From: a virus
IMG/VR virus record: IMGVR_UViG_3300037755_000305
Span: 1 to 64,000 of that record
Strand: one strand, 5' to 3'
DNA: 64,000 nucleotides
Under the pieces are notes generated by a model. It ran no database searches. It saw only the letters and a list, made by a program, of their open reading frames with translations, and was not told the origin of the DNA. Both the position numbers and the translations under genes were made by a program. Below are positions 12,459-29,712 of this stretch, in pieces; positions within the stretch are counted from its first letter, which is position 1; each line of letters begins with the position of its first letter.

Positions 12459-12466
12459 TTATCTCT
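12459..12466 (+). promoter_or_regulatory. Recurrent TTATCTCT boundary motif, copy 2
   Basis: ATTATCTCTTAGTAG right after the helicase stop, upstream of the patatin-PhoH-glycan run. Confidence 0.55.
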
Positions 12467-14024: not shown

Positions 14025-14687
14025 GTGATGGCGTTTAACCGATTTCTCATTACAAGCTGCGGAAGATCAGGTACCCAGTTTCTAGCGGAAACTATGAACA
14101 TGTCCGGCTCGTGGACTGTAACTCATGAGCCGGACGCTTCCGACTTTGCTCGCGATAGAATCACAGAAGCCACCAGATCACTATTACAGCTTGCTTCATA
14201 TAGCCGATTTTACCAAACGTCGTACTATGGAGAAGTTAATAGTCTTATGCGTCTTTTGATTAAGCCAACTATTAGAACAAACTCACGAGGACATAGAACG
14301 TCCAAAAAATACAGAGATTTTGAAGTAGATAAGAAAGGTGTTATACTAAGGAATCCTTATGAGTTGATGTTATCCACCATGAATAGGTCCAACCCAGATT
14401 ACTGGGACAGCGCCTTGTCCAACCTAACAAGCGATCTGTGTATTCTCGATTGGTGTGTGTCTTCTGGCTTCTACCTAATACGGTTCAATCAAATGACCTC
14501 AAATGAAGAGTACCTAAATTGCGTCTTGAGAGACTTTGGAATCAACGATGTTACAGTAACGTCGTCTATGGTAAATAACGTAATAAACTCCTCTATCAAA
14601 ACATTGTCGTTGAAGGACTTGAGTTCCGATCAGTTTGCTCGGTTGGAAAGAATCAGCGACCCATTCATTGCTAGGCATTCTCTATGA
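14025..14687 (+). CDS. Sulfotransferase-like protein (P-loop fold)
   Basis: N-terminal FLITSCGRSGTQFLA PAPS-binding-type loop, THEP and ILRNPY. Confidence 0.6.
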   Translation: MMAFNRFLITSCGRSGTQFLAETMNMSGSWTVTHEPDASDFARDRITEATRSLLQLASYSRFYQTSYYGEVNSLMRLLIKPTIRTNSRGHRTSKKYRDFEVDKKGVILRNPYELMLSTMNRSNPDYWDSALSNLTSDLCILDWCVSSGFYLIRFNQMTSNEEYLNCVLRDFGINDVTVTSSMVNNVINSSIKTLSLKDLSSDQFARLERISDPFIARHSL

Positions 14688-15481
14688 AAATTTTGCATGC
14701 AGGACCCTGGGTAGGAGAGTTCGGTTGGGAGCTTTGTTCTTGGAACCCCCGCGTAAGAAAGATGTCCCAGGAGTACGATAGAGTAGTTGTGGAGGGACCG
14801 TCCTCATCGGAATTCCTATACGAATTTGCTGATGTGTATATAGCTAATGATACTAAACCGAATACCTCCGATGGATACAACGGAGAAGCTAAGAACCCGT
14901 CCACTCCAGAAGAAGGTGCCAAAGTTGTGAAGCCTGTATGGAATCAAATGGGTAAACCAGAGATGGGCCTTCTTCGTAAGCCATACAAGCCGCATCCCGA
15001 CAAAGAATGGAAATCTTTGGCCCCCAAAAACCCAGAGTTCGTGGCCGATATTTTGTGCGCTTTTAGACCAGTTAAAAACTATCGAGGCAAAATTCTGAAG
15101 GACAAAGAGTATCCTAAAAAACTGTGCGTACAGTTGGTAGGTGAGCTTCTTATTCGTGGGTTCTCTGTTGCGTGCATTGGAGGATCTGACAACTATCACA
15201 TTCCTGGTACAGTTGATCTTCGTGGCAAGTCGCTGGAGGATCAGTGTAGTGCTATTGCCGCAGGCAAGGTAGTAGCAGGCCCCAGCAGCGGTCCTTTACA
15301 TCTAGCTGCTCTGTGTGGAACCCCACAGGTGGTTTGGTATAACCGTCCTAACCAAATCACTTCCTATGCTAGATATGAGAGTCACTGGAACCCTTTCGGC
15401 ACACCTCACACATACTTGAAACAACAGGTCCCTGCCCCGTCACAAATTGCTGAAGCTGTAGAGGGGCACGCAAATGGTTAA
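14684..15481 (+). CDS. GT9 (heptosyltransferase-like) glycosyltransferase
   Basis: C-terminal VDLRGKSLEDQCSAIAAGKVVAGPSSGPLHLAALCGTPQVV matches the GT9 signature; N-terminal GPWVGEFGWEL. Confidence 0.7.
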   Translation: MKILHAGPWVGEFGWELCSWNPRVRKMSQEYDRVVVEGPSSSEFLYEFADVYIANDTKPNTSDGYNGEAKNPSTPEEGAKVVKPVWNQMGKPEMGLLRKPYKPHPDKEWKSLAPKNPEFVADILCAFRPVKNYRGKILKDKEYPKKLCVQLVGELLIRGFSVACIGGSDNYHIPGTVDLRGKSLEDQCSAIAAGKVVAGPSSGPLHLAALCGTPQVVWYNRPNQITSYARYESHWNPFGTPHTYLKQQVPAPSQIAEAVEGHANG

Positions 15482-15971
15482 ACTGAACATCGGATGCGGA
15501 ACAGATTACAGAGAAGGATTTGTCAACATCGACGGTAGCGATGTTCTACCTAAGATTGACAAGGTTATAGACTTCAACTATGACAGATTAGAGTCTCACT
15601 TTAGTGACGTTGGACACATTTTGTGCAATGATTTCATAGAGCACTTTTTTCATTGGGAAGCTGTAAATCTCATGGAAGATTTCTTCAGCGTGCTGAAACC
15701 TGGAGGCACTGTAGAGATCAGGGTACCAGACAGCGAGTGGATTATAGCCTCGGATAAGTCTGTTGAGTGGAAGCTTCGACAAATGTACGGGGGACAAGAT
15801 ACTCAGCAGGGAACGATGGACTTCTCCCGTATCGAGTACCCTCAATTCTTCTGTCATAAATACGGATGGACCAGGGAGCGCATCCGAAAAGATCTAGAAG
15901 AGATCGGATTTACTGAGCTTAGGTTTGAGCAAGTAAACGCCAATTTTGTAACTTACGGAAAACGTCCATGA
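15474..15971 (+). CDS. Class I SAM-dependent methyltransferase-like protein
   Basis: KLNIGCGTDYREGFVNID, DFIEH and LKPGG, a short MTase type often found in glycan loci. Confidence 0.8.
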   Translation: MVKLNIGCGTDYREGFVNIDGSDVLPKIDKVIDFNYDRLESHFSDVGHILCNDFIEHFFHWEAVNLMEDFFSVLKPGGTVEIRVPDSEWIIASDKSVEWKLRQMYGGQDTQQGTMDFSRIEYPQFFCHKYGWTRERIRKDLEEIGFTELRFEQVNANFVTYGKRP

Positions 15972-16744
15972 AAATTTACCCCGACCTGCATAACGGCATC
16001 GAGCGCATACGTAACATGGACATTTGCCTTGCACGTAAATTTCTTCAAGAGAGGGAATTTTTCGAACCTGTTGTTGAGAAAGTACATCAGGTAGCTAGAG
16101 ACAAGGCTCGGTGTCGTATCGAGTGGCCATTAGAAAAAATCCACGAGCATATTTCTGCTGAGCAAATAAAACTCCTATGTACCAACTTAGCTCGGGAGCG
16201 AGGCCCTAAATCTTTGCGAGTAATGTTGGCCAAGTTCACCCATGATGTGGTTAGGGAAGAGTTAGGAGTGTCTGAAAAATTCTGGCTAGATTTTCAGCCT
16301 GTGGTTCGCTTCTATACCCCTCATGATTTCTGGGTAAGTCACAAGGACCAGCTTAATCTAGGAGGTCATCTTCGTATCCAGGGACCACATCATGATACTT
16401 GGTTCGGGCACGCTACAGAAGGTATGAATCTGTGGATGGCAATAGGTCCAGTTTGCCGAGGCAACGGTCTTTCAGTGTACCCCGACGCCTGTGTCAATGG
16501 ATATATAGAGCATGACGGAAACCACGGTATGCCAAAAGACCAGTACATAGGAGTTCCTGTAAACTTCAATATGAGTCCCGGCGACATGCTGCTGTTCCAT
16601 GGCGAGATGGTACACGCTTCTGAGTTGAATCAGACGCAAGACACAAGGTTCGTTCTGACTACCCGTTTCTCCTTGGACCCTCCCATATTTCAAAAAGGTG
16701 CCCATGGCGGAAACAGTCCATGGATAACGTCGGAGGAGGTATGA
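15968..16744 (+). CDS. 2-oxoglutarate/Fe(II) dioxygenase (PhyH/StrG-like)
   Basis: PHHDTW (HxD), NLWMAI, GDMLLFHGEMVHASELN (distal His), RFVLTTRF (2OG-binding Arg). Confidence 0.8.
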   Translation: MKIYPDLHNGIERIRNMDICLARKFLQEREFFEPVVEKVHQVARDKARCRIEWPLEKIHEHISAEQIKLLCTNLARERGPKSLRVMLAKFTHDVVREELGVSEKFWLDFQPVVRFYTPHDFWVSHKDQLNLGGHLRIQGPHHDTWFGHATEGMNLWMAIGPVCRGNGLSVYPDACVNGYIEHDGNHGMPKDQYIGVPVNFNMSPGDMLLFHGEMVHASELNQTQDTRFVLTTRFSLDPPIFQKGAHGGNSPWITSEEV

Positions 16745-17364
16745 AAACTGGAGAGACAATTTGGATTATGAGCTATCCAAAATCGGGCACACATTACTTA
16801 GCACGACTACTTAGGGAAAACTTTTCAGTTACCACTATGTTCGGTGGTCATCTTTTGCCGGATCGCCCTTTAGGGTCCTGGACCAAAGCTAAAAACCGAA
16901 GAACTGTATATATTACTAGACAAATGGAAGAAGCTACAGCATCTTATGCTAGTAATGCAGTAAAAGACATCTCTCCTGAGAAATTTAGGAAAATGACTTG
17001 GCAACAGTTATGGAATGAACACTATTTCGATCCAGAAAGAAAGAGAGCTGGAAAGTATTGGCCTGCATGGTTGCCCAAACGATACATGGGTACCACACCT
17101 GAAAGTTTTTGGCGCATATCCGTAGAAGCTTGGACTGAATACGCCAAAGACGACACTGATTTTTATATAGTAAAATACGAAGATTTGAAAAATACTGAAA
17201 AATTTCATAGCACTATGCTATCTTTGGCTACTTGGTTAGGAAGCAGAAGGACAGAATTTGAAGACATAAAAGAGAAGGTTGACAATTCTCCATTTAGGGA
17301 AGGCGGGTTCGTAGGAAAAAGCGGGAAACTATCTCCGGTACAAAGTACCGTGGAGGAAGTATGA
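16741..17364 (+). CDS. Sulfotransferase domain protein
   Basis: IWIMSYPKSGTHYL 5'-PSB loop, VYITR and IVKYEDL. ATG 16741 with SD GGAGG. Confidence 0.8.
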   Translation: MKTGETIWIMSYPKSGTHYLARLLRENFSVTTMFGGHLLPDRPLGSWTKAKNRRTVYITRQMEEATASYASNAVKDISPEKFRKMTWQQLWNEHYFDPERKRAGKYWPAWLPKRYMGTTPESFWRISVEAWTEYAKDDTDFYIVKYEDLKNTEKFHSTMLSLATWLGSRRTEFEDIKEKVDNSPFREGGFVGKSGKLSPVQSTVEEV

Positions 17365-17606
17365 ACAAGATCAAAATAGTAAAGCCTGGAATAATTTCGG
17401 TAGAGATTGATGGAGAACTTCATTACTTCTCTAGGTACTGCACGCACGAAGGAGCAGACTTGTCCCTAGGCTACGTGGATGAGCATGGCTGCCTTGGGTG
17501 CCCTTGGCACAATCTAAAGTTTGACAAGAATGGGAAGCAGTCGTGCAAAAGCCTTAAAAATCTGAAGAAATATCGAAAGGAAGGCGACGATTATGTGGCT
17601 TGTTAA
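17361..17606 (+). CDS. Rieske [2Fe-2S] ferredoxin
   Basis: CTHEG...CPWH Rieske ligand motif. Confidence 0.88.
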   Translation: MNKIKIVKPGIISVEIDGELHYFSRYCTHEGADLSLGYVDEHGCLGCPWHNLKFDKNGKQSCKSLKNLKKYRKEGDDYVAC

Positions 17607-18543
17607 CACGTCATACGGATGGAACCCTGGTGACGACTTGATACGCGAAGGTGTATTCAATTTGTTCGGTCTAGGTTCTCAAGATTCTAAGGTATTCGTC
17701 AATAGGGGACAGACTCGTGTAAACGGCAAGAACGAAGCTATCTGGAGAATTCTTCGAAATGTTGAAAGCCCAGAACATCTGGCTTCCCAAGCAACCGGAA
17801 TCATCATGGCTGGTAGCCCAGAATGGTTTGATTTTTTCGAAGAATTTTACGAAGCGGCTGCTAAATACAGTGTTCCAATCTACATGGTTGGGGTAGGTAT
17901 GCGGTCTGTTTCTAAGAGAGCGCCTGCCCTCATAGATTCTATTAAGCATCTGGTGAAGGGTGCTACTGTAAGAGATTCGCATGCAGCCGGTGTTCTGAAG
18001 GAGCGCGGAATTTCTCACGAGTGGTTCCCCGATCCTGCGTTTTCTGCGTCTTACTCGGTACCAGTATCTAAGCGTTACGGTCTTGTTGCGAACTACAGGT
18101 CCCACGGAGGTAATGGGACCTTCAAAGATACATTTGATGCCAAGTGGGGCGAGGTGGAAAAGAAGTACGGCAAGGACATAGACCTAGTTACTGTACACGA
18201 GCAGGGCGAATACGCTAAAGCGAAAAAGATTTTCTCAGCACCGGTATTCTACAGCTCAGATTATCTAGATTACAAAGATATCTACTCAAGCACTAGGCTA
18301 TATTTAGGAGGCCGGATTCACGGTGCAACTCCGGTGCTGGCTACTGGCGGTACAGCTCACATCATTTACAACTCACCCAAGATATCTGTCCTTGAGAAAG
18401 TAGCACCCATTATGGACACATTATCTATATCCTCATACAAAGACGCTATCCCTGACTTACAGGAAAAAGACCCAACGGGTGCTCTTAGGGCTATGGAAAT
18501 CAAGGTGCAGCAGCACAAAGATTATTGGGCTTCACGACGATGA
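17593..18543 (+). CDS. Polysaccharide pyruvyl transferase family protein
   Basis: NPGDDLI, MVGVG, TVRD, PDPAF and RIHG, the motif order typical of this family. Confidence 0.78.
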   Translation: MWLVNTSYGWNPGDDLIREGVFNLFGLGSQDSKVFVNRGQTRVNGKNEAIWRILRNVESPEHLASQATGIIMAGSPEWFDFFEEFYEAAAKYSVPIYMVGVGMRSVSKRAPALIDSIKHLVKGATVRDSHAAGVLKERGISHEWFPDPAFSASYSVPVSKRYGLVANYRSHGGNGTFKDTFDAKWGEVEKKYGKDIDLVTVHEQGEYAKAKKIFSAPVFYSSDYLDYKDIYSSTRLYLGGRIHGATPVLATGGTAHIIYNSPKISVLEKVAPIMDTLSISSYKDAIPDLQEKDPTGALRAMEIKVQQHKDYWASRR

Positions 18544-19589
18544 GGGTTCTGTTATTGTGTTCCTCAAATCCAAGAGGAACAGCGTTAGGTATGCAACATG
18601 GACTGTTAGCGGGCGGGCATGTAGCTGACCTTTTCTTTGCGGATAAACGTGATGCTAGAGACCTGCTTAAAGAGGCCCGCAGCTACGATACTGTCATTAT
18701 CTGCAAAGGGAACCAAATACGAAACCTAGATCGGTACTTAGAAGTGGTTAGAAATTTGCCAGACACCACTTACTTTATACCCGACGTTGTTGATCGCGGC
18801 AACAGAGCATCGTCTGTAGGTCCTCGGGCATTAGCATGTACTAGAATCGTATGTACAGGAACAGAGGCGGCCAAGTGGTTCCGCAGTCAGAGATATAGAG
18901 GCAGAGTAGCTCAGGTGTACCAGGGCTTTCGTTCTCACATCTGGAAGCCTGGAGACAGTTTGCCTCAAAACCAAAACCGGATAGCTTTTTTGGGTGCATT
19001 TTACGGAGATGACGGAGGACGAGAAAACAGGCTTGCTGGGCTACGAAATCTGGGGTTCGATGTCTTCCATAGAGACGACATTTTTCACGAACAAGCAGCA
19101 TCCACGTATTGGAACAGTGCGCTTTGCCTAAATTTCAGCGCGTGGGACTGCACATCAAATAGGGCCGTTCGCGTAATGGCTTCTGGCGGGTTTTTGCTGA
19201 CAGAGCTGAACAGAGATGTAGCCGCCACATTTGAGCGCGGGAATCAACTAGACTGGTTTTCTTCCCCTAAGGAAATGGAAGAAAAAGTTATCTTTTACAT
19301 GAAAAATCCTAAAATTCGCATGGAAATAGCTAAAAGGGGCTACACCTGGACTAAAGACAGATCATGGACGGAACAAATGGAGAAGATCGTTCGTTTTGTA
19401 CAGGGCGAGGATTTTTGCGACGGAGCTGCTGATCCATACACAGGGGAGGCTCCAGACTACCCGGAACCAGAACCTATGCGAACTACTAAACCTAAGAAGC
19501 AGACCACGAAATCTAAGAAGCACAACCCCGTAGCCGCCAAGTCTAGTCCTGGGACGCGAAGATATGGTAAGGGAGGAGCTTTACAATGA
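18540..19589 (+). CDS. CgeB-like GT-B glycosyltransferase, paralogue A
   Basis: IAFLG, YWNSALCLN, SNRAVRVMASGGFLLTE and RMEIAKRG. ATG 18540 overlaps the upstream stop. Confidence 0.78.
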   Translation: MRVLLLCSSNPRGTALGMQHGLLAGGHVADLFFADKRDARDLLKEARSYDTVIICKGNQIRNLDRYLEVVRNLPDTTYFIPDVVDRGNRASSVGPRALACTRIVCTGTEAAKWFRSQRYRGRVAQVYQGFRSHIWKPGDSLPQNQNRIAFLGAFYGDDGGRENRLAGLRNLGFDVFHRDDIFHEQAASTYWNSALCLNFSAWDCTSNRAVRVMASGGFLLTELNRDVAATFERGNQLDWFSSPKEMEEKVIFYMKNPKIRMEIAKRGYTWTKDRSWTEQMEKIVRFVQGEDFCDGAADPYTGEAPDYPEPEPMRTTKPKKQTTKSKKHNPVAAKSSPGTRRYGKGGALQ

Positions 19590-20209
19590 AATATGATCCC
19601 AGAGAATACTGGGCCGAACGTCTACAAAGAAAGGGCAAGAACTACGTTGCTTGGAAGAGCCTGTCAGGCGCTTTTGATAAACAGTCCGAGGTGTTTTGGG
19701 CGGCAACTGCACCACACTTGCCCAATGGTGGTAGGGTTCTAGACTTTGGGTGCGGAGTAGGTCGCTTTGCTGCTGTGTTGTCCAATGTTGTAGATTCTTA
19801 CGATGGAGTCGATATCAATGAAGGTGCCCTGAAACTTGCACCCGAGCTGGAAAATGCTACATTCACGCACCTAGCTGAGGATAGGTTGCCCTTCCCTGAT
19901 GCTACTTTTGATGGAGCAGTGGCTTTCACGGTCATTCAGCACATTGTGGACCCAAAACATTATGCCAATTGGACAGCCGAGCTAGCTCGCGTTGTTCGTC
20001 CCGGAGGGTGGTTCTTCGTGATTGACGATCCACAGTTTGATACCAGCGGCAAGCGCATTAAAGATGCAATACATATGCGTCGCCGAACTCCCGAAATCAT
20101 TTCGGCGTCACTGTTGTCCACAGTTACAAAGACCGGAAAAATAAGTGCAGAGTACAAAGACTCTCACTATTACTTTCTGTCTACGAGAGATGAGCAATGC
20201 GATACCTAG
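19586..20209 (+). CDS. Class I SAM-dependent methyltransferase
   Basis: VLDFGCGVGRF, GVDIN, LPFPDATFD, VIQHI and VRPGG. Confidence 0.88.
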   Translation: MKYDPREYWAERLQRKGKNYVAWKSLSGAFDKQSEVFWAATAPHLPNGGRVLDFGCGVGRFAAVLSNVVDSYDGVDINEGALKLAPELENATFTHLAEDRLPFPDATFDGAVAFTVIQHIVDPKHYANWTAELARVVRPGGWFFVIDDPQFDTSGKRIKDAIHMRRRTPEIISASLLSTVTKTGKISAEYKDSHYYFLSTRDEQCDT

Positions 20210-21150
20210 TAACAGGAGCCGCAGGGTTCATTGGAGCCCGATTTGTAGAGAGTTGCAAGAAAGAAGGAATCGAATTGGTTTCGGTGGACAAGCTTGTCAA
20301 TTTCTCCAGACCAGAGCATAAGGGTCTAAATTTTGGCATGAAGTTCGATATTGACGACATCATGCAGCACCTTATTCATGACGCTCCAAGGAATATTGAT
20401 GCCATTATTCATCTGGGAGCGATAACAGATACAACCGCTTCGGACATCTACGAACTGCGCAGACTCAACACTGATTTCACACATGTATTGTGGAGATACG
20501 CTCATGAGTATCAAGTGCCTTTTGTGTACGCTTCTAGTGCAGCTACCTACGGTGATTCGGAAGTATTTTCCGACGACGAAGACAAGCTACGTAGCCTTAT
20601 ACCGTTAAACGACTATGGTTTTTCCAAGCACGCTTTTGACATGTCTGCTCTAAAACTAGAAGGGCAGGGCATTGCTCCACCCAATTGGGCTGGTTTCAAG
20701 TTCTTCAACGTATACGGATATGGAGAGTCGCACAAGGGCCGTATGGCAAGCATGGTGTATCAGGCGTTCCAGCAGGCTCAACACGACCGTAAGATCACTC
20801 TATTTAAATCACATAGAGACGACGTAGGAGATGGACTACAGTGCAGGGATTTCATCTATGTAGACGATGTAGTGGACGTGCTGCATTGGGCTCTGGCCCA
20901 CTCGAAGCGTGGCATCTACAATCTGGGCACAGGAACAGCCAGCCCGTTCCTAGATATAGCTTTCAGCGTATTTGAAGTTCTTAAGATGTTCCCTAAGATC
21001 GACTGGGTTGCTACCCCGGAAGATATCCGAAACCAGTATCAATACTTCACCAAGGCTGACATGACTAAACTCCGAAATGCGGGCTATACGAAGCGTTTTA
21101 CGAGAATAGAGGAGGGGATAAAAGCCTACGCAAAGAGGATGTGTTTGTGA
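20197..21150 (+). CDS. hldD: ADP-L-glycero-D-manno-heptose 6-epimerase-like SDR
   Basis: VTGAAGFIG, HLGAITDT, YASSAATYG, YGFSK (YxxxK), FFNVYG, MASMVYQ, RDFIYVDD, YNLGTG and YQYFTKAD; the last motifs are HldD/RfaD-specific. Confidence 0.85.
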   Translation: MRYLVTGAAGFIGARFVESCKKEGIELVSVDKLVNFSRPEHKGLNFGMKFDIDDIMQHLIHDAPRNIDAIIHLGAITDTTASDIYELRRLNTDFTHVLWRYAHEYQVPFVYASSAATYGDSEVFSDDEDKLRSLIPLNDYGFSKHAFDMSALKLEGQGIAPPNWAGFKFFNVYGYGESHKGRMASMVYQAFQQAQHDRKITLFKSHRDDVGDGLQCRDFIYVDDVVDVLHWALAHSKRGIYNLGTGTASPFLDIAFSVFEVLKMFPKIDWVATPEDIRNQYQYFTKADMTKLRNAGYTKRFTRIEEGIKAYAKRMCL

Positions 21151-22163
21151 AAGTTCTTGTAATGGCACATTTCTCCGATAAGAGAAGTACCATACACGGA
21201 CTTACTGCGGGTCTGGACGTAGGGGGACATCAATGGTTCCCTTGCGAGACCAAAGCTGGAAGTGTGAGACCAAATAATCCAGAATTCGCCAATTACGTTG
21301 TTTCTATGGCGGATCGTCTCAAGGTCGATACTGTATTGATCGGCAAGGGCACAACTATCCCTATAGGGATATACAAGCAAATGGTATCCAGATTACCAAA
21401 TACAACATATCTGACTTTTGATTCTGTAAGCGGAAACGGTTGTGGTCCACCTCAAAGGCCGGAAGAATGTGGACAACGCGGTATGCTGTGCGATCGTATC
21501 ATTCTTACAGGGTCAGAAGGCGCACGCTGGTTTAGGGATAATGGTTTCCAGGGACGTATTGCACAGATCTATCAAGGATGCAGGCATAGTCTTTGGAGAC
21601 CCAATAGCTTAGAGGAAGAAAGAAGTCTGCAACACACGGTATCTTTCTTGGGTTCAAGTAACTATAAAGGAGATGGGGGCCGTAAGGCTAAGCTTTCCGC
21701 CCTGTCAGGTGCAGGCTTTCATGTGCAGCACAACAAGAGAATTTTTCACGAAGAAGCTTCTAGATTGTATTACAATAGCGGAATCTGTTTGAATATGGTG
21801 TGTGGTACCCCGAACGAAGGACATACGCCAGTTGGTATCACATCCAACCGTTTGGTTAGGGTGCTAACTTCTGGAGGGTTCGCCCTATCAGAAAGGAATA
21901 CAGACGTTGCAGCTACTTTCGAAGAAGGGAATCACTTGGCTACGTACAATTTTGGTGATGTACCGGATCTTCTTGAGAAGGCTCGTTACTGGATGGATAG
22001 ACCTTCAGATAGGCTGGAAATCGCAAGGCGTGGGTGGGAGTGGTCAGCCAATTGGGGCTGGGATCAACAAGTGGACAAAATGATGAGGTTTATTGATGGA
22101 GACGATGTTCCCGCTGACGGAGCTGCAAGCCCTTGGGTGGGCACTTTTCGCGTGGACGGCTAA
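21147..22163 (+). CDS. CgeB-like GT-B glycosyltransferase, paralogue B
   Basis: Aligns along its length with 18540-19589 (e.g. IFHEEASRLYYNSGICLN vs IFHEQAASTYWNSALCLN). GTG start at 21147 or 21141. Confidence 0.78.
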   Translation: MKVLVMAHFSDKRSTIHGLTAGLDVGGHQWFPCETKAGSVRPNNPEFANYVVSMADRLKVDTVLIGKGTTIPIGIYKQMVSRLPNTTYLTFDSVSGNGCGPPQRPEECGQRGMLCDRIILTGSEGARWFRDNGFQGRIAQIYQGCRHSLWRPNSLEEERSLQHTVSFLGSSNYKGDGGRKAKLSALSGAGFHVQHNKRIFHEEASRLYYNSGICLNMVCGTPNEGHTPVGITSNRLVRVLTSGGFALSERNTDVAATFEEGNHLATYNFGDVPDLLEKARYWMDRPSDRLEIARRGWEWSANWGWDQQVDKMMRFIDGDDVPADGAASPWVGTFRVDG

Positions 22164-22578
22164 CCTACTAGCCCCCGCGTGGCCTCTAATTGCTTCAGCC
22201 GTTGCCGGAGCCATAGTCGGACTGGAGCGAGAGTGGGCCAGTAAACCCGCCGGACTCCGTACCAACATGTTGATTTGTGTGGGCTCCTGCCTCTATTGCA
22301 TCATGTCAGTAGAAGTTGGGCTAGACCCTTCCCGTATTGCCGCTCAGGTGGTAAGCGGCGTGGGCTTTATCGGGGCTGGTGCTATACTGCGTATCAACCA
22401 GAACATTACGGGCGTTACGACAGCAGCCACTATATGGTTGGTAGCCGCCATTGGCATGGCTATCGGATTCGGCTACATTAGTCTCGGGCTAACGCTAGCT
22501 TTCTTCACCACTGTGGCTCTGTTTTTGTTGGGGCGTGTAGAAATAAAGGTAGCCGATGACGAAGATACTCATGACTAG
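22096..22578 (+). CDS. mgtC: MgtC/SapB-family membrane protein
   Basis: IVGLERE, PAGLRT, DPSRIAAQVVSGVGFIGAG and GVTTAATIW, with hydrophobic helices. Confidence 0.9.
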   Translation: METMFPLTELQALGWALFAWTANLLAPAWPLIASAVAGAIVGLEREWASKPAGLRTNMLICVGSCLYCIMSVEVGLDPSRIAAQVVSGVGFIGAGAILRINQNITGVTTAATIWLVAAIGMAIGFGYISLGLTLAFFTTVALFLLGRVEIKVADDEDTHD

Positions 22579-23353
22579 GCTCGGCGGTGTCGGAGACATG
22601 GTGATGACAGAGCCCGTTCTCCAGACTCTCCATGACAAGTATGCCCCTTGTCACATTACTTATCGGACCCACAGACACGTTTACGATCTGATGCTGTATC
22701 ATCCTCTAATCGACCAGATCCTCTGCACTCGAACAGGTTGCTGGACCCCCACCCCAGAGGGGTATGATATTCATGTAAATTTGCACGGGGTCATTGAAAA
22801 AGCCCCCTTCGGGAAGCACGGAATTGACGCTTTCGCGGAGGCTGCGGGAGTCACGCTAGAGAGAAGACAACCAAGGCTTTATCTTGAGGGGAAAATGTGC
22901 CCTGTGGCATCTGAGGATGACCGCTATCCAACGATTTCCCACCCTGAGACCAAGACCCCGCCCATGGTTGATATCTCTTTCCACGTCCCTCAAGAGCCCC
23001 GTAACATGGCATGGAAATCTGGGCGAGTGGTTATTTCTCGTTTTATGGAGTTTCTCGATGAAAACGGAGAGAAACCGATTGTGCGCGTGGTAGGGCAAGA
23101 TCATGTGGAGCCGGGTCGCTCTAATGTGCTCAAAATGTCCAAGGAAATACAACAATCTCGACTTTTCGTGGGGCCAGATAGCGGCGGATTTCACATTGCC
23201 GCAGCTCTAGGAGTGCCTACTGTGGCCTCCTTTACAGACAAGTTCCCAGCCAAAATGAGAAGCTACTCTAAAGTAGTTGCGGCCGGTGATGATCTAAAGG
23301 AGGTCTTTACCCTGGCTCTAGCAATGTACAGGAAGACGAAAAATGGCAATTAG
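22556..23353 (+). CDS. GT9 (ADP-heptose:LPS heptosyltransferase-like) glycosyltransferase
   Basis: RLGGVGDMVMTEPVL (typical GT9 start) and FVGPDSGGFHIAAALGVPTV. Confidence 0.82.
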   Translation: MTKILMTRLGGVGDMVMTEPVLQTLHDKYAPCHITYRTHRHVYDLMLYHPLIDQILCTRTGCWTPTPEGYDIHVNLHGVIEKAPFGKHGIDAFAEAAGVTLERRQPRLYLEGKMCPVASEDDRYPTISHPETKTPPMVDISFHVPQEPRNMAWKSGRVVISRFMEFLDENGEKPIVRVVGQDHVEPGRSNVLKMSKEIQQSRLFVGPDSGGFHIAAALGVPTVASFTDKFPAKMRSYSKVVAAGDDLKEVFTLALAMYRKTKNGN

Positions 23354-24308
23354 GCCCGATCCCGCTAATCCAGCAGAATCGAAGACTGTACGAAAGGTTG
23401 CCATTACACCTGACAGCATTCCTCCTTTTGATGCAGCAGCACATTACGCGAATTACGACCATGAAGCGGTTCTGGCTTTGTCTCGTAAGACTCTAATCAC
23501 CTCCGCCACGTATAATCGTAAGGGAACAGTGGAACAGTGTGTTGCGGCTACCAACAGGCACAAGCTTGAAGCCAAGATGTACATACATGATGACGGCTCT
23601 GACGAGTACGGCGAGACTTGGCTTCAGCAGTTCGGAGATAGAGTGTTTCGACACAAAAGATCTGCGGGCGGCAAACAAGGTGTCAAGAATCTGCGCTCCA
23701 ATATAACCAAGAGTGTACTTGGCGATTTTCAGCCGGATGTCTTCAAGCCCTGGCTTGAAGAAGATTTCGTATCGGCAGGACCAGAATACCTATATCACGT
23801 AGATAGCGATGGACTACACGACCCATATTTTTTCTATCGCATTCACGAAATCATGGAGCTGTATCCGAATTGGGGAACAATTTGTCTCTATAACGCCAAG
23901 TTCCATTCTCCTCGTGGCAACAGAACCGAGAACAGCGTAATAGACCCTTACACCTCAGTTAGAAGTATGGCACCCGGCATTTCTATGTTTTTCCGAATGC
24001 AGAGTTTTCTAGACAATCCCAATAAGGTCCAAGTACCGGATGGTCGAGGTTGGGATGGATTTTATTCACGAGAAGTAGCTAACAGAAAAGTCGTTACGTC
24101 TTTGGTGTCGTTCGTAGAACACTACGGAAAATGGGGATTTCATAACAAGGGAAACTTCGATCGAGACAGAGCTTTGAACCCAACCAAGTATCTGACAGAC
24201 GGCAGGCAGAGCACTATCGAGAAAATAGAATCTGAGCACGTACTAACAACTAAGCGCATGGATCAAGTCTCCAAGACGCCAATGTCAGGGAGTAACCATG
24301 CAGTCTAA
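23343..24308 (+). CDS. GT2-like (GT-A) glycosyltransferase
   Basis: TYNR, IHDDGSDE, and a DxD motif in YLYHVDSD. Confidence 0.7.
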   Translation: MAIRPDPANPAESKTVRKVAITPDSIPPFDAAAHYANYDHEAVLALSRKTLITSATYNRKGTVEQCVAATNRHKLEAKMYIHDDGSDEYGETWLQQFGDRVFRHKRSAGGKQGVKNLRSNITKSVLGDFQPDVFKPWLEEDFVSAGPEYLYHVDSDGLHDPYFFYRIHEIMELYPNWGTICLYNAKFHSPRGNRTENSVIDPYTSVRSMAPGISMFFRMQSFLDNPNKVQVPDGRGWDGFYSREVANRKVVTSLVSFVEHYGKWGFHNKGNFDRDRALNPTKYLTDGRQSTIEKIESEHVLTTKRMDQVSKTPMSGSNHAV

Positions 24309-26616
24309 GACCCAACTTTTCAATAAGCGCTCACCCGCACTACTAAATGGAACCTCTTACATTACCCGTGAAGGCGGCTTTCTAGAAGCCGCTTCCGGTT
24401 CCATGGGAACGGTTACTGATAAGTGGACTATCGCTACTTGGATCAAGAGGCAGAGAAACTTCTCAAGTTCAGAGGCATTCTTTACACTGCGTGATACCCC
24501 CACCACTCTCCTTGGGGCTATACAGTTTACTAACTGGATTGGAGCCAACGAGCTTAGATTTATCTTACGCAATGATTCTGGAGCCCAAGTAAGCACCTAT
24601 GAGATTTTGGACGTTCCGGCATTTGGGCTGAACACTGATTGGGAATTTTTCGTATTCACTTACGACTACAACGGTGGCACTGTTTTGCAAGAGTTCTATT
24701 ACAATGGAACTCTGTTAGACGAGACTCCCGGCGCTGGTGTTGGGGACCCCTATCTGGATCGCGTAACAGTGGCAAACCCGCAACAAGCAGGAATTGACAA
24801 ATACATCAGTGTAGGAACCTTCGAGGGACAAGTCTTCAACTGGTCTATGTGGGATCGCGTATTGTCGCTGAGTGAAGTATCTTCATTGTACAATGGAGGT
24901 AATGGCTTCGTTGTTGACTATACAAAAAATAAAGCCTATTACAGCCCGGAAGGTCTGAATTTTCACTATACTTTCGATGATACGGACGACAGGGGAAAGA
25001 ACTTCGGAAGTGTTTCAAGAGATCTAACAGCAAATACAAGTGGTCTAGCTACTTACACAACATCCGACCTACCGGGTAAAAACGATCCTACAGTCTATAT
25101 GAAGGAAGACATGTCGTTCATGCTAAACCCGGGTGGGGGCAGCAATGGTCACTATATTAACGGTCCCCTATTAAGTTCGTTGTTTCCTTCTGATTTGAAT
25201 ACTTTTAGTGTTAGCTTTTGGTTTAAACGGGTTCCTGGCGTTACGTCTACCGAGTTCGAGGCTATCATAGGGTCTTCCACAGACTGGGATAACTGGACAG
25301 ATGGTTTTGCCGTATACTGGGGTAATGGAACAGATATAATTTTTTGGGTCAATGATCGGGATGGCGTTAATACTTCCGTGGAATATACCGGGTTTGCAGA
25401 TGATGACTGGCACCATCTTGTTGCTGTTTACGATGGAGCTAATGGGGAGCTAAAGATATACGACAATGAAGTTGTTGCCGCCGAAAATCTAACGGCTACA
25501 ACAGCCAACTTGTCTAGAACCGGGGCACAAAATTTTGGGCTGGGAAGGGTCGGGAACCTAAATCATGGAAGTTCGGATTACGGTTCAGGTTTCTACGATG
25601 AAGTCGCTGTATTCGATAGGGTTCTTACGAATGCTGAAATATCCCAACTTTATAACCAGGGAGTTCCATCCAGCCCTGTTAATTTGTCTGGACTACAACT
25701 ATGGTGGCAGGTAGACGAAGCTAATGGAGATAGTGACGATTTTAGCGGCACTCCAATTGTTGAAGACCAATCCGGCAACGACTTCGATGGTACCCCGTCC
25801 ATAGCAGGATCCAGTTCTGGTGCGGGGGCAGGATTCTTTCGTATATCCGAAAACAAGCCAACTTTTCAAGACAGATCCCTTGAATTTTCCAGTTCCACAA
25901 ACTATGTGGAAACAGTTAGCGTTTCTCCTTACTTAGGAATTCACGCGGCCGACTGGTCCGCAGCATGTTGGTTCAAATCTACTGCAACACCGAGCGCCGC
26001 TGACGAACCTGTTATATTTGAAACCACCGACCCTAGCGACGAAAGCGTTTTTCAGTTCTACATTGACGATTCGGATAATCTGCACATCAAACTATGGGAT
26101 ACCGACGGAGTCTTATTCAAACACTTTAGCTCTCCCCATGAAGGAAACAATGTATGGCAATACGTTGTTGCGGTATTTACCTCAGCTAGTGACATTCTGA
26201 CTGTATATAGTGGAACAGATACAGATTCTTCCATGACTGACATTACTGCATCCATGACAAAGACAGTAGACAACGCTGGAACCATGACTAATGAGGGGCC
26301 GCAGACTATTCGGTTTGGGAATAATGCCGCGCATGATACTAATTTTCCGGGTCGCATTTATAGTCTAACTTTATGGGACGATGCTTTAGCTTCTGCGGAA
26401 GTTACAGAGCTTCTTAACATGCGGTCTTTCAGGTCTCCCGTAATAGGTTCTTACGGAGACTATGTATCAAGCGCTGATATGCTGTACCATTACGACTGGA
26501 AAGACACATACTACATCGGAGACAATAGAAGTGCAGCACGCCTCACTCCAGCTATAGACCCAGATGTTGGCGGCGTGTGGCCACCATCCAATACGGATGT
26601 TCCACGTCGATACTAA
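24298..26616 (+). CDS. Triple LamG/concanavalin A-like lectin domain protein (probable virion protein)
   Basis: Three repeats of T/SIxxWxK...W(H/E/Q)xxxx(Y/F)...I-Y-x-(D/N)...DEVAV(F/W)DRxL..E(I/V)..LY; acidic and Ser/Thr/Gly-rich. Confidence 0.8.
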   Translation: MQSKTQLFNKRSPALLNGTSYITREGGFLEAASGSMGTVTDKWTIATWIKRQRNFSSSEAFFTLRDTPTTLLGAIQFTNWIGANELRFILRNDSGAQVSTYEILDVPAFGLNTDWEFFVFTYDYNGGTVLQEFYYNGTLLDETPGAGVGDPYLDRVTVANPQQAGIDKYISVGTFEGQVFNWSMWDRVLSLSEVSSLYNGGNGFVVDYTKNKAYYSPEGLNFHYTFDDTDDRGKNFGSVSRDLTANTSGLATYTTSDLPGKNDPTVYMKEDMSFMLNPGGGSNGHYINGPLLSSLFPSDLNTFSVSFWFKRVPGVTSTEFEAIIGSSTDWDNWTDGFAVYWGNGTDIIFWVNDRDGVNTSVEYTGFADDDWHHLVAVYDGANGELKIYDNEVVAAENLTATTANLSRTGAQNFGLGRVGNLNHGSSDYGSGFYDEVAVFDRVLTNAEISQLYNQGVPSSPVNLSGLQLWWQVDEANGDSDDFSGTPIVEDQSGNDFDGTPSIAGSSSGAGAGFFRISENKPTFQDRSLEFSSSTNYVETVSVSPYLGIHAADWSAACWFKSTATPSAADEPVIFETTDPSDESVFQFYIDDSDNLHIKLWDTDGVLFKHFSSPHEGNNVWQYVVAVFTSASDILTVYSGTDTDSSMTDITASMTKTVDNAGTMTNEGPQTIRFGNNAAHDTNFPGRIYSLTLWDDALASAEVTELLNMRSFRSPVIGSYGDYVSSADMLYHYDWKDTYYIGDNRSAARLTPAIDPDVGGVWPPSNTDVPRRY

Positions 26617-26625
26617 AGGGTAGTT

Positions 26626-27093
26626 ATGTTGAAGAAAATCATCTCAGGAGCGCAGACTGGCGCAGACCAAGGAGGGCTGGAAGCCGCCGCTTTCTTAGGA
26701 ATTCCCACAGGTGGCAAAATGCCTCTTGGCTTTAGGACCGAAGACGGCTATCATCCAGAGTTTTCTGAGATGTATGACGTCGAGGAGCTGGCTTCCGGAG
26801 AATACGCTCCGAGAACTAGATACAACGTGGTAGATTCGGACGCTACTGTCATCTTTGGTAGGGTCAATTCACCAGGGTCCAGCACGACACGAAGAATGTG
26901 CAAGGACAGTAACAAACCTTGCTTGGTAATTGAGGAATTTAGTGAATTATATTTTCGTTTATTTGGAGAATTTCTTCAGATGTACAAAGTTGAGACGCTA
27001 AATGTGGCAGGCAACAGAGAATCCAAGAATCCCGGATTGCAAAAACAGGTGTACGATTTTTTGATCGCAGCACTAGGAGATAAAGAAGAATGA
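26626..27093 (+). CDS. SLOG-superfamily protein (circularly permuted YpsA / putative molybdenum carrier family)
   Basis: KIISGAQTGADQGGL, RTRYNVVDSDAT, KPCL and LNVAGNRES. Confidence 0.85.
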   Translation: MLKKIISGAQTGADQGGLEAAAFLGIPTGGKMPLGFRTEDGYHPEFSEMYDVEELASGEYAPRTRYNVVDSDATVIFGRVNSPGSSTTRRMCKDSNKPCLVIEEFSELYFRLFGEFLQMYKVETLNVAGNRESKNPGLQKQVYDFLIAALGDKEE

Positions 27094-27957: not shown

Positions 27958-29321
27958 TGAAGGTTCAAGACCTAGATAACGAAGCCATCGCTATCATGAC
28001 GCTTGTCGGTTTCAGCGACAAGCCGAAGGCAGTTCTTGCAGCAAAACTTCGTGCTGAGCACTTTAGCGAGCCAAGGTGTGTAGAGACGTACACTCGTATC
28101 ATGTCCATGGCTAAAAGCCGACACGAACTTCCGACATACGACACTTTGCAACATGACTCGCTGCTATCAAAAGAAGCTCGTGAGCTTCTTGATAGCACTG
28201 TGTATCCAGCAGCCAAGACCGCAGGAGACGCCGAGCAGCTAGTATCCGCTTTGGAGGTCATGCGGCAAAGTCGAGTCTTGATGGAGGGCATCAGCGAAAT
28301 GACTGAGCTGATGAAGGATGAGCAAGCTGATCCTAACGATGCCTTCTCTATTTTGGAAACGACCCTACTTGACGCCAGAACAGACGCTTCAGACGAAACC
28401 CTTTCCATGGGAATGGACGGAAACTTCAGGGAAGCTGTAGCTCACATGCTAAGCCAAAAGAAACCGCACACTATTCCTACAGGGTTTCATGAGTTTGACA
28501 ATTCTGCCGGAGGACTGCCGCGAGGCGGTCTTACCACGCTGGCAGCAAGCTCTGGTGGTGGTAAGAGCTGCATGGCTGTACAAATCTGCATCAATGCCGT
28601 CCGAGCAGGATTCAGCGCCGCTATTGTTACGCTGGAAATGAGCAAAGAGCAAACGACCGGCCGCATATCAGCCAACCTTTCAGGTGTGGATTACGGAGCT
28701 ATCAACCGCTACACACTCAACGAGATGCAGAAAACACGCATCGACAAAGCTACCGCTGCTTGGCAAAAAGAGTGCGAAGACGGAAACAAGAAGTTCGAAG
28801 TATTCCATCGCCACAACATGACATTCACAGAAATTGCTTTGGAAATGCGGTCGCTTAACTTTGATTTGATAGTCGTGGACTATATAAACCTTCTAGACAA
28901 GGAAAGCGATTCTAGTAAGGGATCCAATGACGCGGCTATTTTGGGAGACATCGCTAAGCAAGCCAAGCTGCAAGCTGGCGCTACTAAAACTGCGTGGGTT
29001 ATGTTGGCTCAGCTCAACGAGCAAGGCGACGTGAAGTATTCTAAGGCCATCAAAGAACATAGTGATTACATGCTTACATGGGTTTATGGTGATGCTGAAC
29101 GCGAGAGCCATCTTATTGAAATCAACATCCCTAAGGCTCGTCATAGCCCAAGCTTCAAGTTTCCGTTACGAGAGAGTTTCAAAACCCAGAGATTCGAAAA
29201 TCCGGGAAATCCTGATAACAACCAAGATGTAGCCATCAAGAAAAGCAAGAACAAAGTGGGTAGGCACCCAACAGCAAAACCAATGTTTGGAGACGTAGAG
29301 GATGATGACGATGATCTGTAA
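27957..29321 (+). CDS. dnaB: DnaB-like replicative helicase
   Basis: IPTGFHEFDNSAGGL, LAASSGGGKS, TLEMS, VVDYINLL, LAQLN and KARH, plus an N-terminal primase-binding-type domain. Confidence 0.9.
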   Translation: MKVQDLDNEAIAIMTLVGFSDKPKAVLAAKLRAEHFSEPRCVETYTRIMSMAKSRHELPTYDTLQHDSLLSKEARELLDSTVYPAAKTAGDAEQLVSALEVMRQSRVLMEGISEMTELMKDEQADPNDAFSILETTLLDARTDASDETLSMGMDGNFREAVAHMLSQKKPHTIPTGFHEFDNSAGGLPRGGLTTLAASSGGGKSCMAVQICINAVRAGFSAAIVTLEMSKEQTTGRISANLSGVDYGAINRYTLNEMQKTRIDKATAAWQKECEDGNKKFEVFHRHNMTFTEIALEMRSLNFDLIVVDYINLLDKESDSSKGSNDAAILGDIAKQAKLQAGATKTAWVMLAQLNEQGDVKYSKAIKEHSDYMLTWVYGDAERESHLIEINIPKARHSPSFKFPLRESFKTQRFENPGNPDNNQDVAIKKSKNKVGRHPTAKPMFGDVEDDDDDL

Positions 29322-29712
29322 AGACCGAGACGTATTTTTCGATCAAAAAGGTTGGGGTTTCGAGCAATGGATGGCTAACAGCGAGCTATATTGCGGAAAA
29401 CTGTTAGTGGTCTTCGCTAGTAAGAAGTGTTCAGTTCACTATCACCAACTAAAGGATGAGACGTTCTACATCCAAAGTGGCCTCATCAAGATGCGGGTGT
29501 GGGAGAAGCCATTTGAGTTTAAGCAGGGAAGTCCTCTGGAGCCTGACCTTAATCCCCAGCCCAAGGAGTTTCTCATGGGTCCTGGCGACCGTCTCGTGAT
29601 TCCGCCGAACACACCGCACCAGTTCGAAGGTATTGGGGCCGAGTCTACCATCATAGAGATTTCTACACAGCATTTCGAAGAGGATTCTTACCGAATCCTG
29701 CAAGGTGATTAG
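29302..29712 (+). CDS. Cupin (sugar-phosphate isomerase-like) protein
   Basis: KGWGFEQW, HYHQLKDETFY and IPPNTPHQF cupin metal motif; start may be 29311. Confidence 0.75.
   Translation: MMTMICKDRDVFFDQKGWGFEQWMANSELYCGKLLVVFASKKCSVHYHQLKDETFYIQSGLIKMRVWEKPFEFKQGSPLEPDLNPQPKEFLMGPGDRLVIPPNTPHQFEGIGAESTIIEISTQHFEEDSYRILQGD

What the first reader, a model, noticed from the sequence alone, without database searches (positions are those of the whole stretch)
14025..26616. Phage-encoded glycan assembly and decoration island (heptosyl, sulfate, pyruvate, methyl, hydroxyl) ending in a lectin-domain protein: best candidate new system
Seen: 14 consecutive genes plus a triple-LamG gene, every one overlapping its neighbour's stop (many ATGA/GTGA junctions). 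They are five glycosyltransferase-like genes (2 GT9, 2 CgeB-like GT-B, 1 GT2), HldD, two sulfotransferases, a pyruvyltransferase, two SAM methyltransferases, a 2OG dioxygenase, a Rieske protein and MgtC. The run follows the same TTATCTCT motif that precedes the structural modules. Known: such enzyme sets build bacterial LPS cores, capsules and S-layer glycans, and virion glycosylation is documented for some giant viruses and mycobacteriophages. I know of no described phage pathway combining heptosylation with sulfation and pyruvylation. Inference: the island most likely builds a heavily modified anionic glycan coat on the virion late in infection. Alternatives are host LPS or receptor conversion (superinfection exclusion), or DNA hypermodification, though no hydroxymethylase or TET-like gene is visible in this window.
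Basis: partly seen in the sequence, partly recalled or inferred. Interest (0 to 1): 0.88.

Follow-up and report, generated by a model that had tools for sequence, protein, structure and literature searches.

The report
Variable sugar-building gene island in large phages
An uncultured large phage, like its relatives, carries a block of 11-21 soluble enzymes that should build a heptose-containing sugar chain with sulfate, pyruvate and methyl groups that differ between strains. The chain probably goes on the phage particle or the host surface, but nothing has been tested chemically.

Summary
The DNA is phage, not host: the window is the first 64 kb of a 184-kb IMG/VR contig. The same island sits in the same slot (helicase-patatin-PhoH-[island]-cpYpsA-DnaB) in at least five further large metagenomic phage contigs.

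Five glycosyltransferases and at least one methyltransferase are universal. Sulfotransferases, HldD, the pyruvyltransferase/2OG/Rieske trio, other methyltransferases, radical SAM, MgtC and LamG come and go, and the island is mosaic.

New here: the phage also encodes a stand-alone HldE-domain-II-like adenylyltransferase at 152.5 kb, as do both tested relatives. GT9-like O2 relatives occur in 64 IMG/VR loci, often beside heptose and nucleotide-sugar genes.

No flippase, polymerase or priming transferase was found, and no hydroxymethylase. The target is unresolved: virion proteins (Thr-rich collagen-like fibres) about 0.45, host envelope about 0.33.

Large glycan clusters are already described genomically in cyanomyoviruses and chemically in Megavirinae. 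This scan has also noted similar phage glycan/sulfation islands on other DNA several times. Verdict: a new variant of a known kind.

The parts
12459..12466 (+). TTATCTCT motif before the patatin gene; nearest upstream copy to the island
   Evidence: The same position is conserved in relative G002. The window has 6 copies against 2.26 expected.
14025..14687 (+). O1, sulfotransferase-fold protein (variable gene)
   Evidence: No Pfam hit. Atlas structure TM 0.74 to Sulfotransfer_3 clusters. CGRSGTQFL loop. Orthologues in G001 and S30.
14684..15481 (+). O2, GT9-like GT-B glycosyltransferase (universal core)
   Evidence: The top PDB hits of the AF2 model are all GT9. Present in 5 of 5 islands. 64 IMG/VR loci carry relatives.
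15474..15971 (+). O3, class I SAM methyltransferase
   Evidence: Methyltransf_23 at 28.9 bits. Falls in cluster 1.
15968..16744 (+). O4, PhyH-type 2OG/Fe(II) oxygenase (G000 and G001 only)
   Evidence: PF05721 at 33.9 bits. Weak match to TIGR04324, the carbohydrate-cluster oxygenase model. 81% identity to G001.
16720..17364 (+). O5, PAPS-type sulfotransferase (variable gene)
   Evidence: PF00685 at 31.6 bits. YPKSGTHYL loop. Absent from G001.
17361..17606 (+). O6, small Rieske [2Fe-2S] protein
   Evidence: PF00355 at 46.6 bits. CTH...CPWH motif intact.
17593..18543 (+). O7, polysaccharide pyruvyltransferase
   Evidence: PF04230 at 47.7 bits. Not a CsaB equivalog. 70% identity to G001.
18525..19589 (+). 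O8, CgeB-like GT-B glycosyltransferase (universal core, paralogue of O11)
   Evidence: PF13524 at 60 bits. Cluster 2 has two copies in every island.
19586..20209 (+). O9, class I SAM methyltransferase (universal core)
   Evidence: Methyltransf_11/23/25, E about 1e-16.
20197..21150 (+). O10, ADP-glyceromanno-heptose 6-epimerase HldD (in 3 of 5 islands)
   Evidence: TIGR02197 at 313.7 bits, above the 274.6 cut-off. 74% identity to G002. Absent from G001.
21141..22163 (+). O11, CgeB-like GT-B glycosyltransferase (universal core)
   Evidence: PF13524 at 47.4 bits. 71% identity to G002.
22093..22578 (+). O12, MgtC-family membrane protein (accessory); the only multi-TM ORF in the contig
   Evidence: PF02308 at 130.6 bits. 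Hydropathy scan. Absent from the four other islands compared.
22556..23353 (+). O13, GT9 glycosyltransferase (universal core)
   Evidence: PF01075 at 31.7 bits, above the cut-off of 22. Profile hits 3tov and 1psw. Paralogues at G000 74462-75607 and 76722-77849.
23343..24308 (+). O14, GT-A fold glycosyltransferase with DxD (universal core)
   Evidence: AF2 pLDDT 84.6. Top PDB hits are GnT-I, POMGnT1, RmlT and SpsA. 33 homologues, all metagenomic.
24298..26616 (+). O15, acidic protein with three LamG domains (sub-clade accessory in the O14-cpYpsA slot)
   Evidence: Three Laminin_G_3 stretches. Orthologues at 58-61% identity; two, on L175 and L176, were checked and sit in the same slot. Absent from G001, G002, S30 and S70.
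29302..29712 (+). Small cupin gene whose homologues recur beside O2-like genes in other phages (possible companion; role unknown)
   Evidence: Homologues in 16 of 53 O2-bearing loci. Lyx_isomer/Cupin_2 hits on orthologues.

Best explanation
The island is a phage-encoded, cytoplasmic pathway that assembles and tailors a glycan.

Proposed mechanism (inferred):
- Five soluble glycosyltransferases lay down a conserved oligosaccharide backbone: two GT9-like, two CgeB-like GT-B and one GT-A.
- The backbone includes heptose. The heptose is activated by the phage's own HldE-domain-II-like adenylyltransferase (G000 152520-152936) and, in this phage, epimerised by HldD.
- Strain-specific enzymes then add sulfate (from host PAPS), pyruvate ketal (from PEP), O-methyl groups (from SAM) and probably a hydroxyl (2OG oxygenase plus Rieske protein).
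- The most likely acceptor is the phage's own surface proteins, which assemble in the cytoplasm. The leading candidates are the five Thr-rich G-X-T collagen-like fibre proteins at 103.6-117.0 kb. These already have a methyltransferase-GT2-TPR-GT9 enzyme next to them. The result would be a strain-variable anionic coat on the particle.

Shown: the gene content, its conservation and variability, enzyme solubility, and the absence of export genes.
Inferred: the order of reactions, the sugar identities other than heptose, and the acceptor.
For: - Families and intact catalytic motifs.
- The island sits in the same slot in five further large contigs. Core proteins are 39-81% identical, as conserved as DnaB at 52-72%.
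- Universal five-glycosyltransferase core with variable tailoring genes and a mosaic structure.
- An HldC-like gene in G000, G001 and G002: 151-160 bits on TIGR02199, against 49 bits on the TagD model.
- MgtC is the only multi-TM ORF in 184 kb, so the contig has no flippase, polymerase or priming transferase.
- Collagen-like genes in all three related IMG/VR genomes. Thr fills 316 of 499 Y positions.
- A 938-aa methyltransferase+GT2+TPR+GT9 protein lies next to the collagen cluster.
- Precedent: clade-specific fibril-glycan clusters with pyruvyl-, methyl- and sulfotransferases in Megavirinae (PMC10117803).
Against: - The island lies among replication genes, not structural genes.
- O2-like genes in 46 other viral contigs co-occur with collagen genes in only 2, so collagen is not the general acceptor of that family.
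- No match to the protein-heptosyltransferase model TIGR04414.
- GT9, HldD and HldC are classically LPS-core enzymes. Core assembly is also cytoplasmic and needs no phage-encoded flippase, so enzyme solubility does not separate the two targets.
- There are no virion, expression or chemical data. The contig is only about 69% complete.
Confidence: 0.45

Rival explanations
1. Host envelope remodelling. The enzymes act at the cytoplasmic face of the inner membrane on the host's LPS core or another lipid-linked glycan, adding heptose-containing, sulfated or pyruvylated side chains. The host's own flippase then exports the product. The changed cell surface would block superinfection or stop progeny being lost on cell debris.
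For: - GT9, HldD and HldC are hallmark LPS-core functions.
- The island sits with auxiliary and early genes: PhoH, a patatin-like lipase and MgtC.
- O2-like genes in other phages sit among nucleotide-sugar genes rather than structural genes.
- The same reading is proposed for the cyanomyovirus clusters (PMC12801897).
- Signal-peptide OmpA-like genes in the phage point to a Gram-negative host.
Against: - O13 scores only 23-38 bits against the WaaC/WaaF/WaaQ models, whose cut-offs are 135-569.
- There are 11-21 genes, as conserved as core replication genes, in every relative, which is a large investment for a lytic cycle.
- The host is unknown, so nothing shows that its LPS contains heptose.
Confidence: 0.33
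2. DNA hypermodification. The glycosyltransferases and tailoring enzymes decorate modified bases of the phage genome to evade restriction.
For: The island lies in the replication module next to cpYpsA and DnaB. Virus-encoded glycosyltransferases that put glycans on DNA are known (Pyle et al. 2024, as cited in PMC12619734).
Against: - No thymidylate-synthase-like hydroxymethylase in G000, G001 or G002, which are 69-89% complete.
- No Tet_JBP hit, although the control for that search was silent.
- Five glycosyltransferases plus sulfation and pyruvylation go far beyond any DNA glycan I know of.
- The 2OG oxygenase is PhyH-type and is absent from three of five islands.
Confidence: 0.05
3. A soluble or secreted glycoconjugate or glycolipid (a small-molecule product) that manipulates host physiology or competitors, with no link to the virion or to LPS.
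For: The tailoring enzymes seen across the islands (TylF-like and FkbM-like methyltransferases, radical SAM, 2OG oxygenase, Rieske protein) are also typical of natural-product sugar tailoring.
Against: No aglycone-forming genes (PKS, NRPS or lipid synthesis) were seen and no exporter. The core consists only of glycosyltransferases plus a methyltransferase.
Confidence: 0.1

Closest known systems
Megavirinae (Mimivirus, Moumouvirus, Tupanvirus) fibril glycosylation gene clusters (PMC10117803, PMC8456856)
   Same: Both are virus-encoded clusters of 6-33 genes that combine glycosyltransferases with a pyruvyltransferase, methyltransferases and sulfotransferases. In both, the content differs between related viruses.
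   Different: Those are eukaryotic giant viruses whose glycans on fibrils have been proven chemically. Their clusters encode whole nucleotide-sugar pathways and no heptose or GT9 enzymes. Here the virus is a tailed phage and there is no chemistry at all.
'Cell wall synthesis and modification' / LPS gene clusters of large T4-like cyanophages (S-SCSM2R, S-SCSM1, P-SSM2; PMC12801897)
   Same: Both are large phage genomes with up to 22 glycan genes (13 glycosyltransferases, NDP-sugar epimerases) whose target is unknown.
   Different: tblastn of O2, O7, O8 and O13 against 50,697 phage records found no homologues. No sulfotransferase or heptose terms were found in that paper. The cyanophage clusters are interpreted as acting on the host surface.
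Mycobacteriophage virion glycosylation (Che8, Corndog, Myrna; Freeman et al. 2023, known to me and cited in PMC12619734; paper not held)
   Same: Phage-encoded glycosyltransferases and methyltransferases that decorate the phage's own particle.
   Different: From my own knowledge, those are small operons beside the capsid and tail genes, acting on the C-termini of capsid and tail-tube proteins. Here there are 15 genes in the replication module, with heptose, sulfate and pyruvate functions.
Bacterial LPS inner-core heptose pathway (HldE/HldC, HldD, WaaC/WaaF)
   Same: HldD is met at equivalog level. The adenylyltransferase is HldE-domain-II-like. The transferases have the GT9 fold.
   Different: No GmhA, kinase or GmhB was found. 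The GT9 proteins are about 265 aa and score far below the WaaC/WaaF/WaaQ cut-offs.
Bacillus/Clostridioides exosporium BclA glycosylation and spore-crust CgeB/SpsA enzymes (from my own knowledge)
   Same: Thr-rich G-X-T collagen-like fibres are assembled and glycosylated inside a cytoplasm. The enzyme families CgeB-like and SpsA-like GT-A are shared.
   Different: This is a resemblance of enzyme families and substrate type only. No orthology was shown, and those systems have no heptose or sulfate.

Membership tests
ADP-glyceromanno-heptose 6-epimerase (HldD, TIGR02197) | Equivalog model score above the curated cut-off over the full length | tested here: met
   O10 scores 313.7 bits against a 274.6 cut-off, covering residues 4-315 of 317.
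Heptose-1-phosphate adenylyltransferase (HldE domain II / HldC, TIGR02199) | Model score above the 181.5-bit cut-off | tested here: inconclusive
   G000 152541-152933 scores 158.6 bits (E 1e-47), covering 9-144 of 144 model positions. This is below the cut-off but far above the TagD model at 49.3 bits. G001 scores 160.1 and G002 150.8.
Glycosyltransferase family 9 (PF01075) | Pfam gathering score; GT-B fold closest to heptosyltransferases | tested here: met
   O13 scores 31.7 bits against a cut-off of 22, but only over the C-terminal 50 residues. O2 has no Pfam hit, but the top Foldseek hits of its AF2 model are all GT9, with TM up to 0.55.
LPS heptosyltransferases I/II/III (TIGR02193, TIGR02195, TIGR02201) | Equivalog score above cut-off | tested here: not met
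   O13 scores 23-38 bits against cut-offs of 135-185. O2 has no hit.
Autotransporter protein heptosyltransferases TibC/Aah (TIGR04414) | Match to the family model | tested here: not met
   No match at E <= 1 anywhere in G000. TibC appears only as a lower-ranked fold hit for O2.
Polysaccharide pyruvyltransferase (PF04230) / CsaB (TIGR03609) | Pfam gathering score; CsaB equivalog score | tested here: met
   O7 scores 47.7 bits on PF04230 against a 25.3 cut-off. CsaB equivalog membership is not met, at 27 bits against 213.
PAPS-dependent sulfotransferases | Family score and a 5'-phosphosulfate-binding loop | tested here: met
   O5 scores 31.6 bits on PF00685 against a cut-off of 22, and has the PKSGT loop. 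O1 has no Pfam hit but has the sulfotransferase fold (TM 0.74) and an RSGT loop.
Wzx/Wzy- or ABC-transporter-dependent polysaccharide loci | Priming polyprenyl-phosphate transferase, flippase or permease, and polymerase (all multi-TM proteins) | tested here: not met
   The hydropathy scan finds only MgtC with three or more TM segments in the 184-kb contig.
Phage DNA glycosylation systems | A hydroxymethyl-pyrimidine source (thymidylate-synthase-like hydroxymethylase or TET/JBP) | tested here: not met
   No PF00303 match in G000, G001 or G002. No PF12851 match, though that control was silent. The contigs are incomplete.
Virus-encoded virion/fibril glycosylation clusters (Megavirinae type) | Clustered glycosyltransferase and tailoring genes that vary by clade; glycan demonstrated on the particle | not testable with these tools
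   Clustering and lineage-specific variation were shown. Whether the particle carries the glycan needs virions.

The most novel reading that the evidence does not exclude
A lineage of large uncultured phages coats its collagen-like fibres with a heptose-based glycan. Its sulfate, pyruvate and methyl decorations are shuffled between strains by recombination, much like bacterial O-antigen loci. This would be a phage glycocalyx under diversifying selection and the first sulfated or pyruvylated glycan on any bacterial virus.
Probability: 0.35. Interest if true: 0.8.

Novelty: new variant of a known kind. Interest (0 to 1): 0.55.

Why it matters
If the product sits on the virion, tailed phages would join giant viruses in making their own complex, charged surface glycans. 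Such glycans could govern adsorption, stability, and escape from grazing or host defences, and would vary between strains as serotypes do. If the product goes on the host envelope, this would be an unusually large receptor-editing module for what looks like a lytic phage. Either way, the finding defines a testable enzyme set: a conserved five-glycosyltransferase core, a phage ADP-heptose arm, and short phage sulfotransferases. These families have no characterised members and no match in PHROGs. GT9-like O2 relatives occur in at least 64 IMG/VR loci.

Tried and rejected
- Megablast of the island against GenBank phages, and tblastn of O2, O7, O8, O13 and an O2-like protein from another contig: no usable hits.
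- PHROGs: no family for 9 of 10 island proteins.
- Host inference from HldD: the best bacterial homologues are only 50-55% identical and are spread over Myxococcota, Bdellovibrionota, Planctomycetota and Acidobacteriota. The search was also biased by its own patterns, so the host is unresolved.
- Genome-level searches of the two NCBI contigs (GCA_004196255.1) were not possible because the records are not held.
- Contexts of the nearest non-lineage O13 relatives were uninformative because the contigs are short.
- A general link between O2-like genes and collagen genes is rejected: 2 of 46 contigs.
- The sigma-70 promoter and terminator scan gave nothing above chance.
- Isoelectric points of the glycosyltransferases did not discriminate a membrane acceptor from a soluble one.
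- The 'moraphage' lineage (PMC12619734) was considered as the possible identity of this phage but could not be tested.
- No complex prediction was run, because no specific binding claim is made.


Full report
**What the sequence is.** The window is the first 64 kb of a single 184,111-bp IMG/VR viral contig. It is linear, and CheckV rates it 69% complete.
- Upstream genes are phage replication and auxiliary genes: ATP-dependent ligase, DHH phosphoesterase, helicase, a patatin-like lipase and PhoH.
- Downstream genes are cpYpsA (SLOG), DnaB, 5'-3' exonuclease, UvrD and a clamp-like protein. Baseplate and other large structural genes follow.
- GC content across the island (0.445-0.509) does not stand out from the rest of the window.
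- The closest cultured phages share only about 30% identity on DnaB, and megablast finds nothing.

**Checking the observation.**
- Fifteen + strand ORFs occupy 14025-26616, and all fourteen internal junctions overlap by 4-71 nt.
- Pfam and NCBIfam confirm, above curated cut-offs: Sulfotransfer_1 (O5), Rieske (O6), PS_pyruv_trans (O7), Glyco_trans_1_2 (O8, O11), methyltransferases (O3, O9), PhyH (O4), HldD (O10), MgtC (O12), Glyco_transf_9 (O13) and three Laminin_G_3 stretches (O15). HldD scores 313.7 bits on TIGR02197 against a cut-off of 274.6.
- O1 has no Pfam hit, but its Atlas model aligns to sulfotransferase clusters at TM 0.74 and it carries an RSGT loop.
- O2 has no Pfam hit. An AF2 model (pLDDT 73.7) finds GT9 structures first: 3tov, WaaF, WaaC and TibC.
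- O14 is sub-threshold for GT2. Its model (pLDDT 84.6) is a GT-A fold nearest to GnT-I, POMGnT1, RmlT and SpsA, and it has an invariant DxD.
- The Rieske Cys/His ligands, the HxD...H of the oxygenase and the PAPS loops are intact.
- Two details need correcting. The nearest TTATCTCT is at 12459, before patatin and PhoH rather than at the island start. It is conserved at that position in relative G002. Also, the run is joined to PhoH and cpYpsA by gaps of 6 and 9 nt, with no promoter or terminator signal above chance.

**Relatives and anatomy.**
- Two IMG/VR contigs carry an island in the same slot: G001 (210 kb) and G002 (266 kb).
- So do two contigs of NCBI assembly GCA_004196255.1: S30 (194 kb) and S70 (129 kb).
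- An ENA contig also carries an island ending in a GT-A gene upstream of cpYpsA and DnaB; its upstream flank was not read.
- In the four with DNA, the slot lies between helicase(-patatin-PhoH) and cpYpsA-DnaB.
- Clustering the island proteins of the five phages with DNA gives a universal core: O2, O13, O14, two CgeB-like glycosyltransferases, and at least one class I methyltransferase.
- Everything else varies:
  - sulfotransferases number one to three;
  - HldD is in three of five islands;
  - pyruvyltransferase, 2OG oxygenase and Rieske protein are in G000 and G001 only;
  - TylF-like and FkbM-like methyltransferases, a radical SAM enzyme, further GT1/GT2 genes and other SDR epimerases appear in some islands.
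- Island size ranges from 11 to 21 genes.
- The island is mosaic. The flanks and right half of G000 are closest to G002 (71-87% identity). Its left half, O1-O9, is closest to G001 (56-81%, against 34-50% or no homologue in G002).
- Core island proteins are about as conserved as DnaB.
- The O14 family has 33 members at 62-80% identity, all metagenomic.
- The LamG gene recurs at 58-61% identity. On two short contigs that were checked it sits in the same slot, between O14 and cpYpsA. G001, G002, S30 and S70 lack it. MgtC is found only in G000 among the five.

**The heptose arm.**
- The contig has no GmhA, PfkB kinase, GmhB or APS kinase.
- G000 152541-152933 scores 158.6 bits (E 1e-47) on the HldE-domain-II model, against 49 bits on the TagD model.
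- G001 and G002 have the same gene. G001 has no HldD at all.
- The lineage therefore encodes the adenylyl-transfer step everywhere and the 6-epimerase only in some members. This would predict D,D- versus L,D-heptose variants.

**A wider class.**
- O2-like genes (25-49% identity) occur in 64 IMG/VR loci, but none was found in 50,697 GenBank phage records.
- Among 53 non-redundant loci, within 10 kb of the O2-like gene:
  - 23 have a CgeB-like glycosyltransferase;
  - 22 have an SDR epimerase;
  - 16 have a homologue of the cupin at window 29302;
  - 15 have the HldC-like gene.
- Pfam tallies of the neighbouring genes are dominated by NDP-sugar enzymes, glycosyltransferases and methyltransferases. 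A few PfkB, HAD phosphatase and transaldolase genes also appear.

**What the target might be.**
- MgtC is the only multi-TM ORF in the contig, so there is no flippase, polymerase or priming transferase. The enzymes must act on something reachable from the cytoplasm.
- In favour of the virion:
  - All three related IMG/VR genomes encode batteries of collagen-like proteins.
  - In G000, five such proteins have Thr at 316 of 499 Y positions.
  - A 938-aa methyltransferase-GT2-TPR-GT9 enzyme lies beside them.
  - O13 has paralogues elsewhere in the genome.
  - Megavirinae provide a chemically proven precedent with the same kinds of tailoring enzyme.
- Against the virion:
  - The island lies in the replication module.
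  - Only 2 of 46 other O2-bearing contigs have collagen genes.
  - Neither GT9 enzyme matches the TibC/Aah model.
- The host-envelope rival remains strong, because the chemistry resembles the LPS core and cyanomyovirus clusters have been read that way.
- DNA glycosylation is unlikely, because three related contigs lack a thymidylate-synthase-like gene.

**Verdict.**
- The finding is real, well conserved and clearly phage-borne.
- Its general nature, a soluble glycan assembly and tailoring pathway with a heptose arm, is well supported. I put it at about 0.85.
- The acceptor is not settled: virion 0.45, host envelope 0.33, other 0.15-0.2.
- Comparable clusters are already known in giant viruses and cyanophages.
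- This scan has also flagged several other phage glycosyltransferase/sulfotransferase islands on other DNA (AI notes, not verified here).
- I therefore class it as a new variant of a known kind, of moderate to good interest.

Noticed in passing
G000 contig 152520-152936 (- strand; outside the window; locus L174:520-936): A stand-alone HldE-domain-II-like nucleotidyltransferase: 158.6 bits on TIGR02199 against 49 bits on the TagD model. It is conserved in G001 and G002. Its homologues often sit beside O2-like glycosyltransferase genes in other phages.
   Followed up: yes
G000 contig 100190-117019 (- strand; loci L101, L102): Five collagen-like genes, about 500 G-X-Y triplets with 63% Thr at the Y position. 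Next to them lies a 938-aa methyltransferase+GT2+TPR+GT9 protein.
   Followed up: partly
G000 contig 72789-77849 (locus L100): Two signal-peptide proteins, one with an OmpA domain. They lie just upstream of two GT9-methyltransferase fusion genes that are paralogues of O13.
   Followed up: partly
L019:1941-3692 (-) and L017:17691-20636 (+), relative G002: PhoH (583 aa against 232) and UvrD (981 aa against 635) are much longer than in G000, and the homology is split in two pieces. This suggests inteins or inserted domains.
   Followed up: no
window 12497-13390: A patatin-like phospholipase gene lies directly after the TTATCTCT motif. It is conserved in G001, G002 and S70 but absent from S30. It has weak matches to CBASS and anti-phage lipase models.
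   Followed up: no
window 10178, 12459, 37030, 50428, 60758 and 14 further sites in the contig: TTATCTCT is about three times over-represented. By my reading of the contexts, 17 of 19 copies are co-directional with local genes, and many lie 10-50 nt before a start codon. It is a likely phage promoter or leader element.
   Followed up: partly
L140 (IMGVR_UViG_3300037067_018091), about 7 kb upstream of its O2-like gene: A MgtC homologue (38% identity to O12) lies in another, unrelated viral contig near CgeB-like and O2-like genes. MgtC may therefore recur in such islands.
   Followed up: no
window 26626-27093: A cpYpsA (circularly permuted SLOG) gene directly follows the island in every relative examined. 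Its role is unknown.
   Followed up: no
L103-L106 (NCBI GCA_004196255.1, contigs SDBU01000030.1 and SDBU01000070.1): Two different phages of this lineage (194 kb and 129 kb) are binned in one public MAG assembly. The assembly's taxon label might hint at the host, but it could not be looked up here.
   Followed up: no
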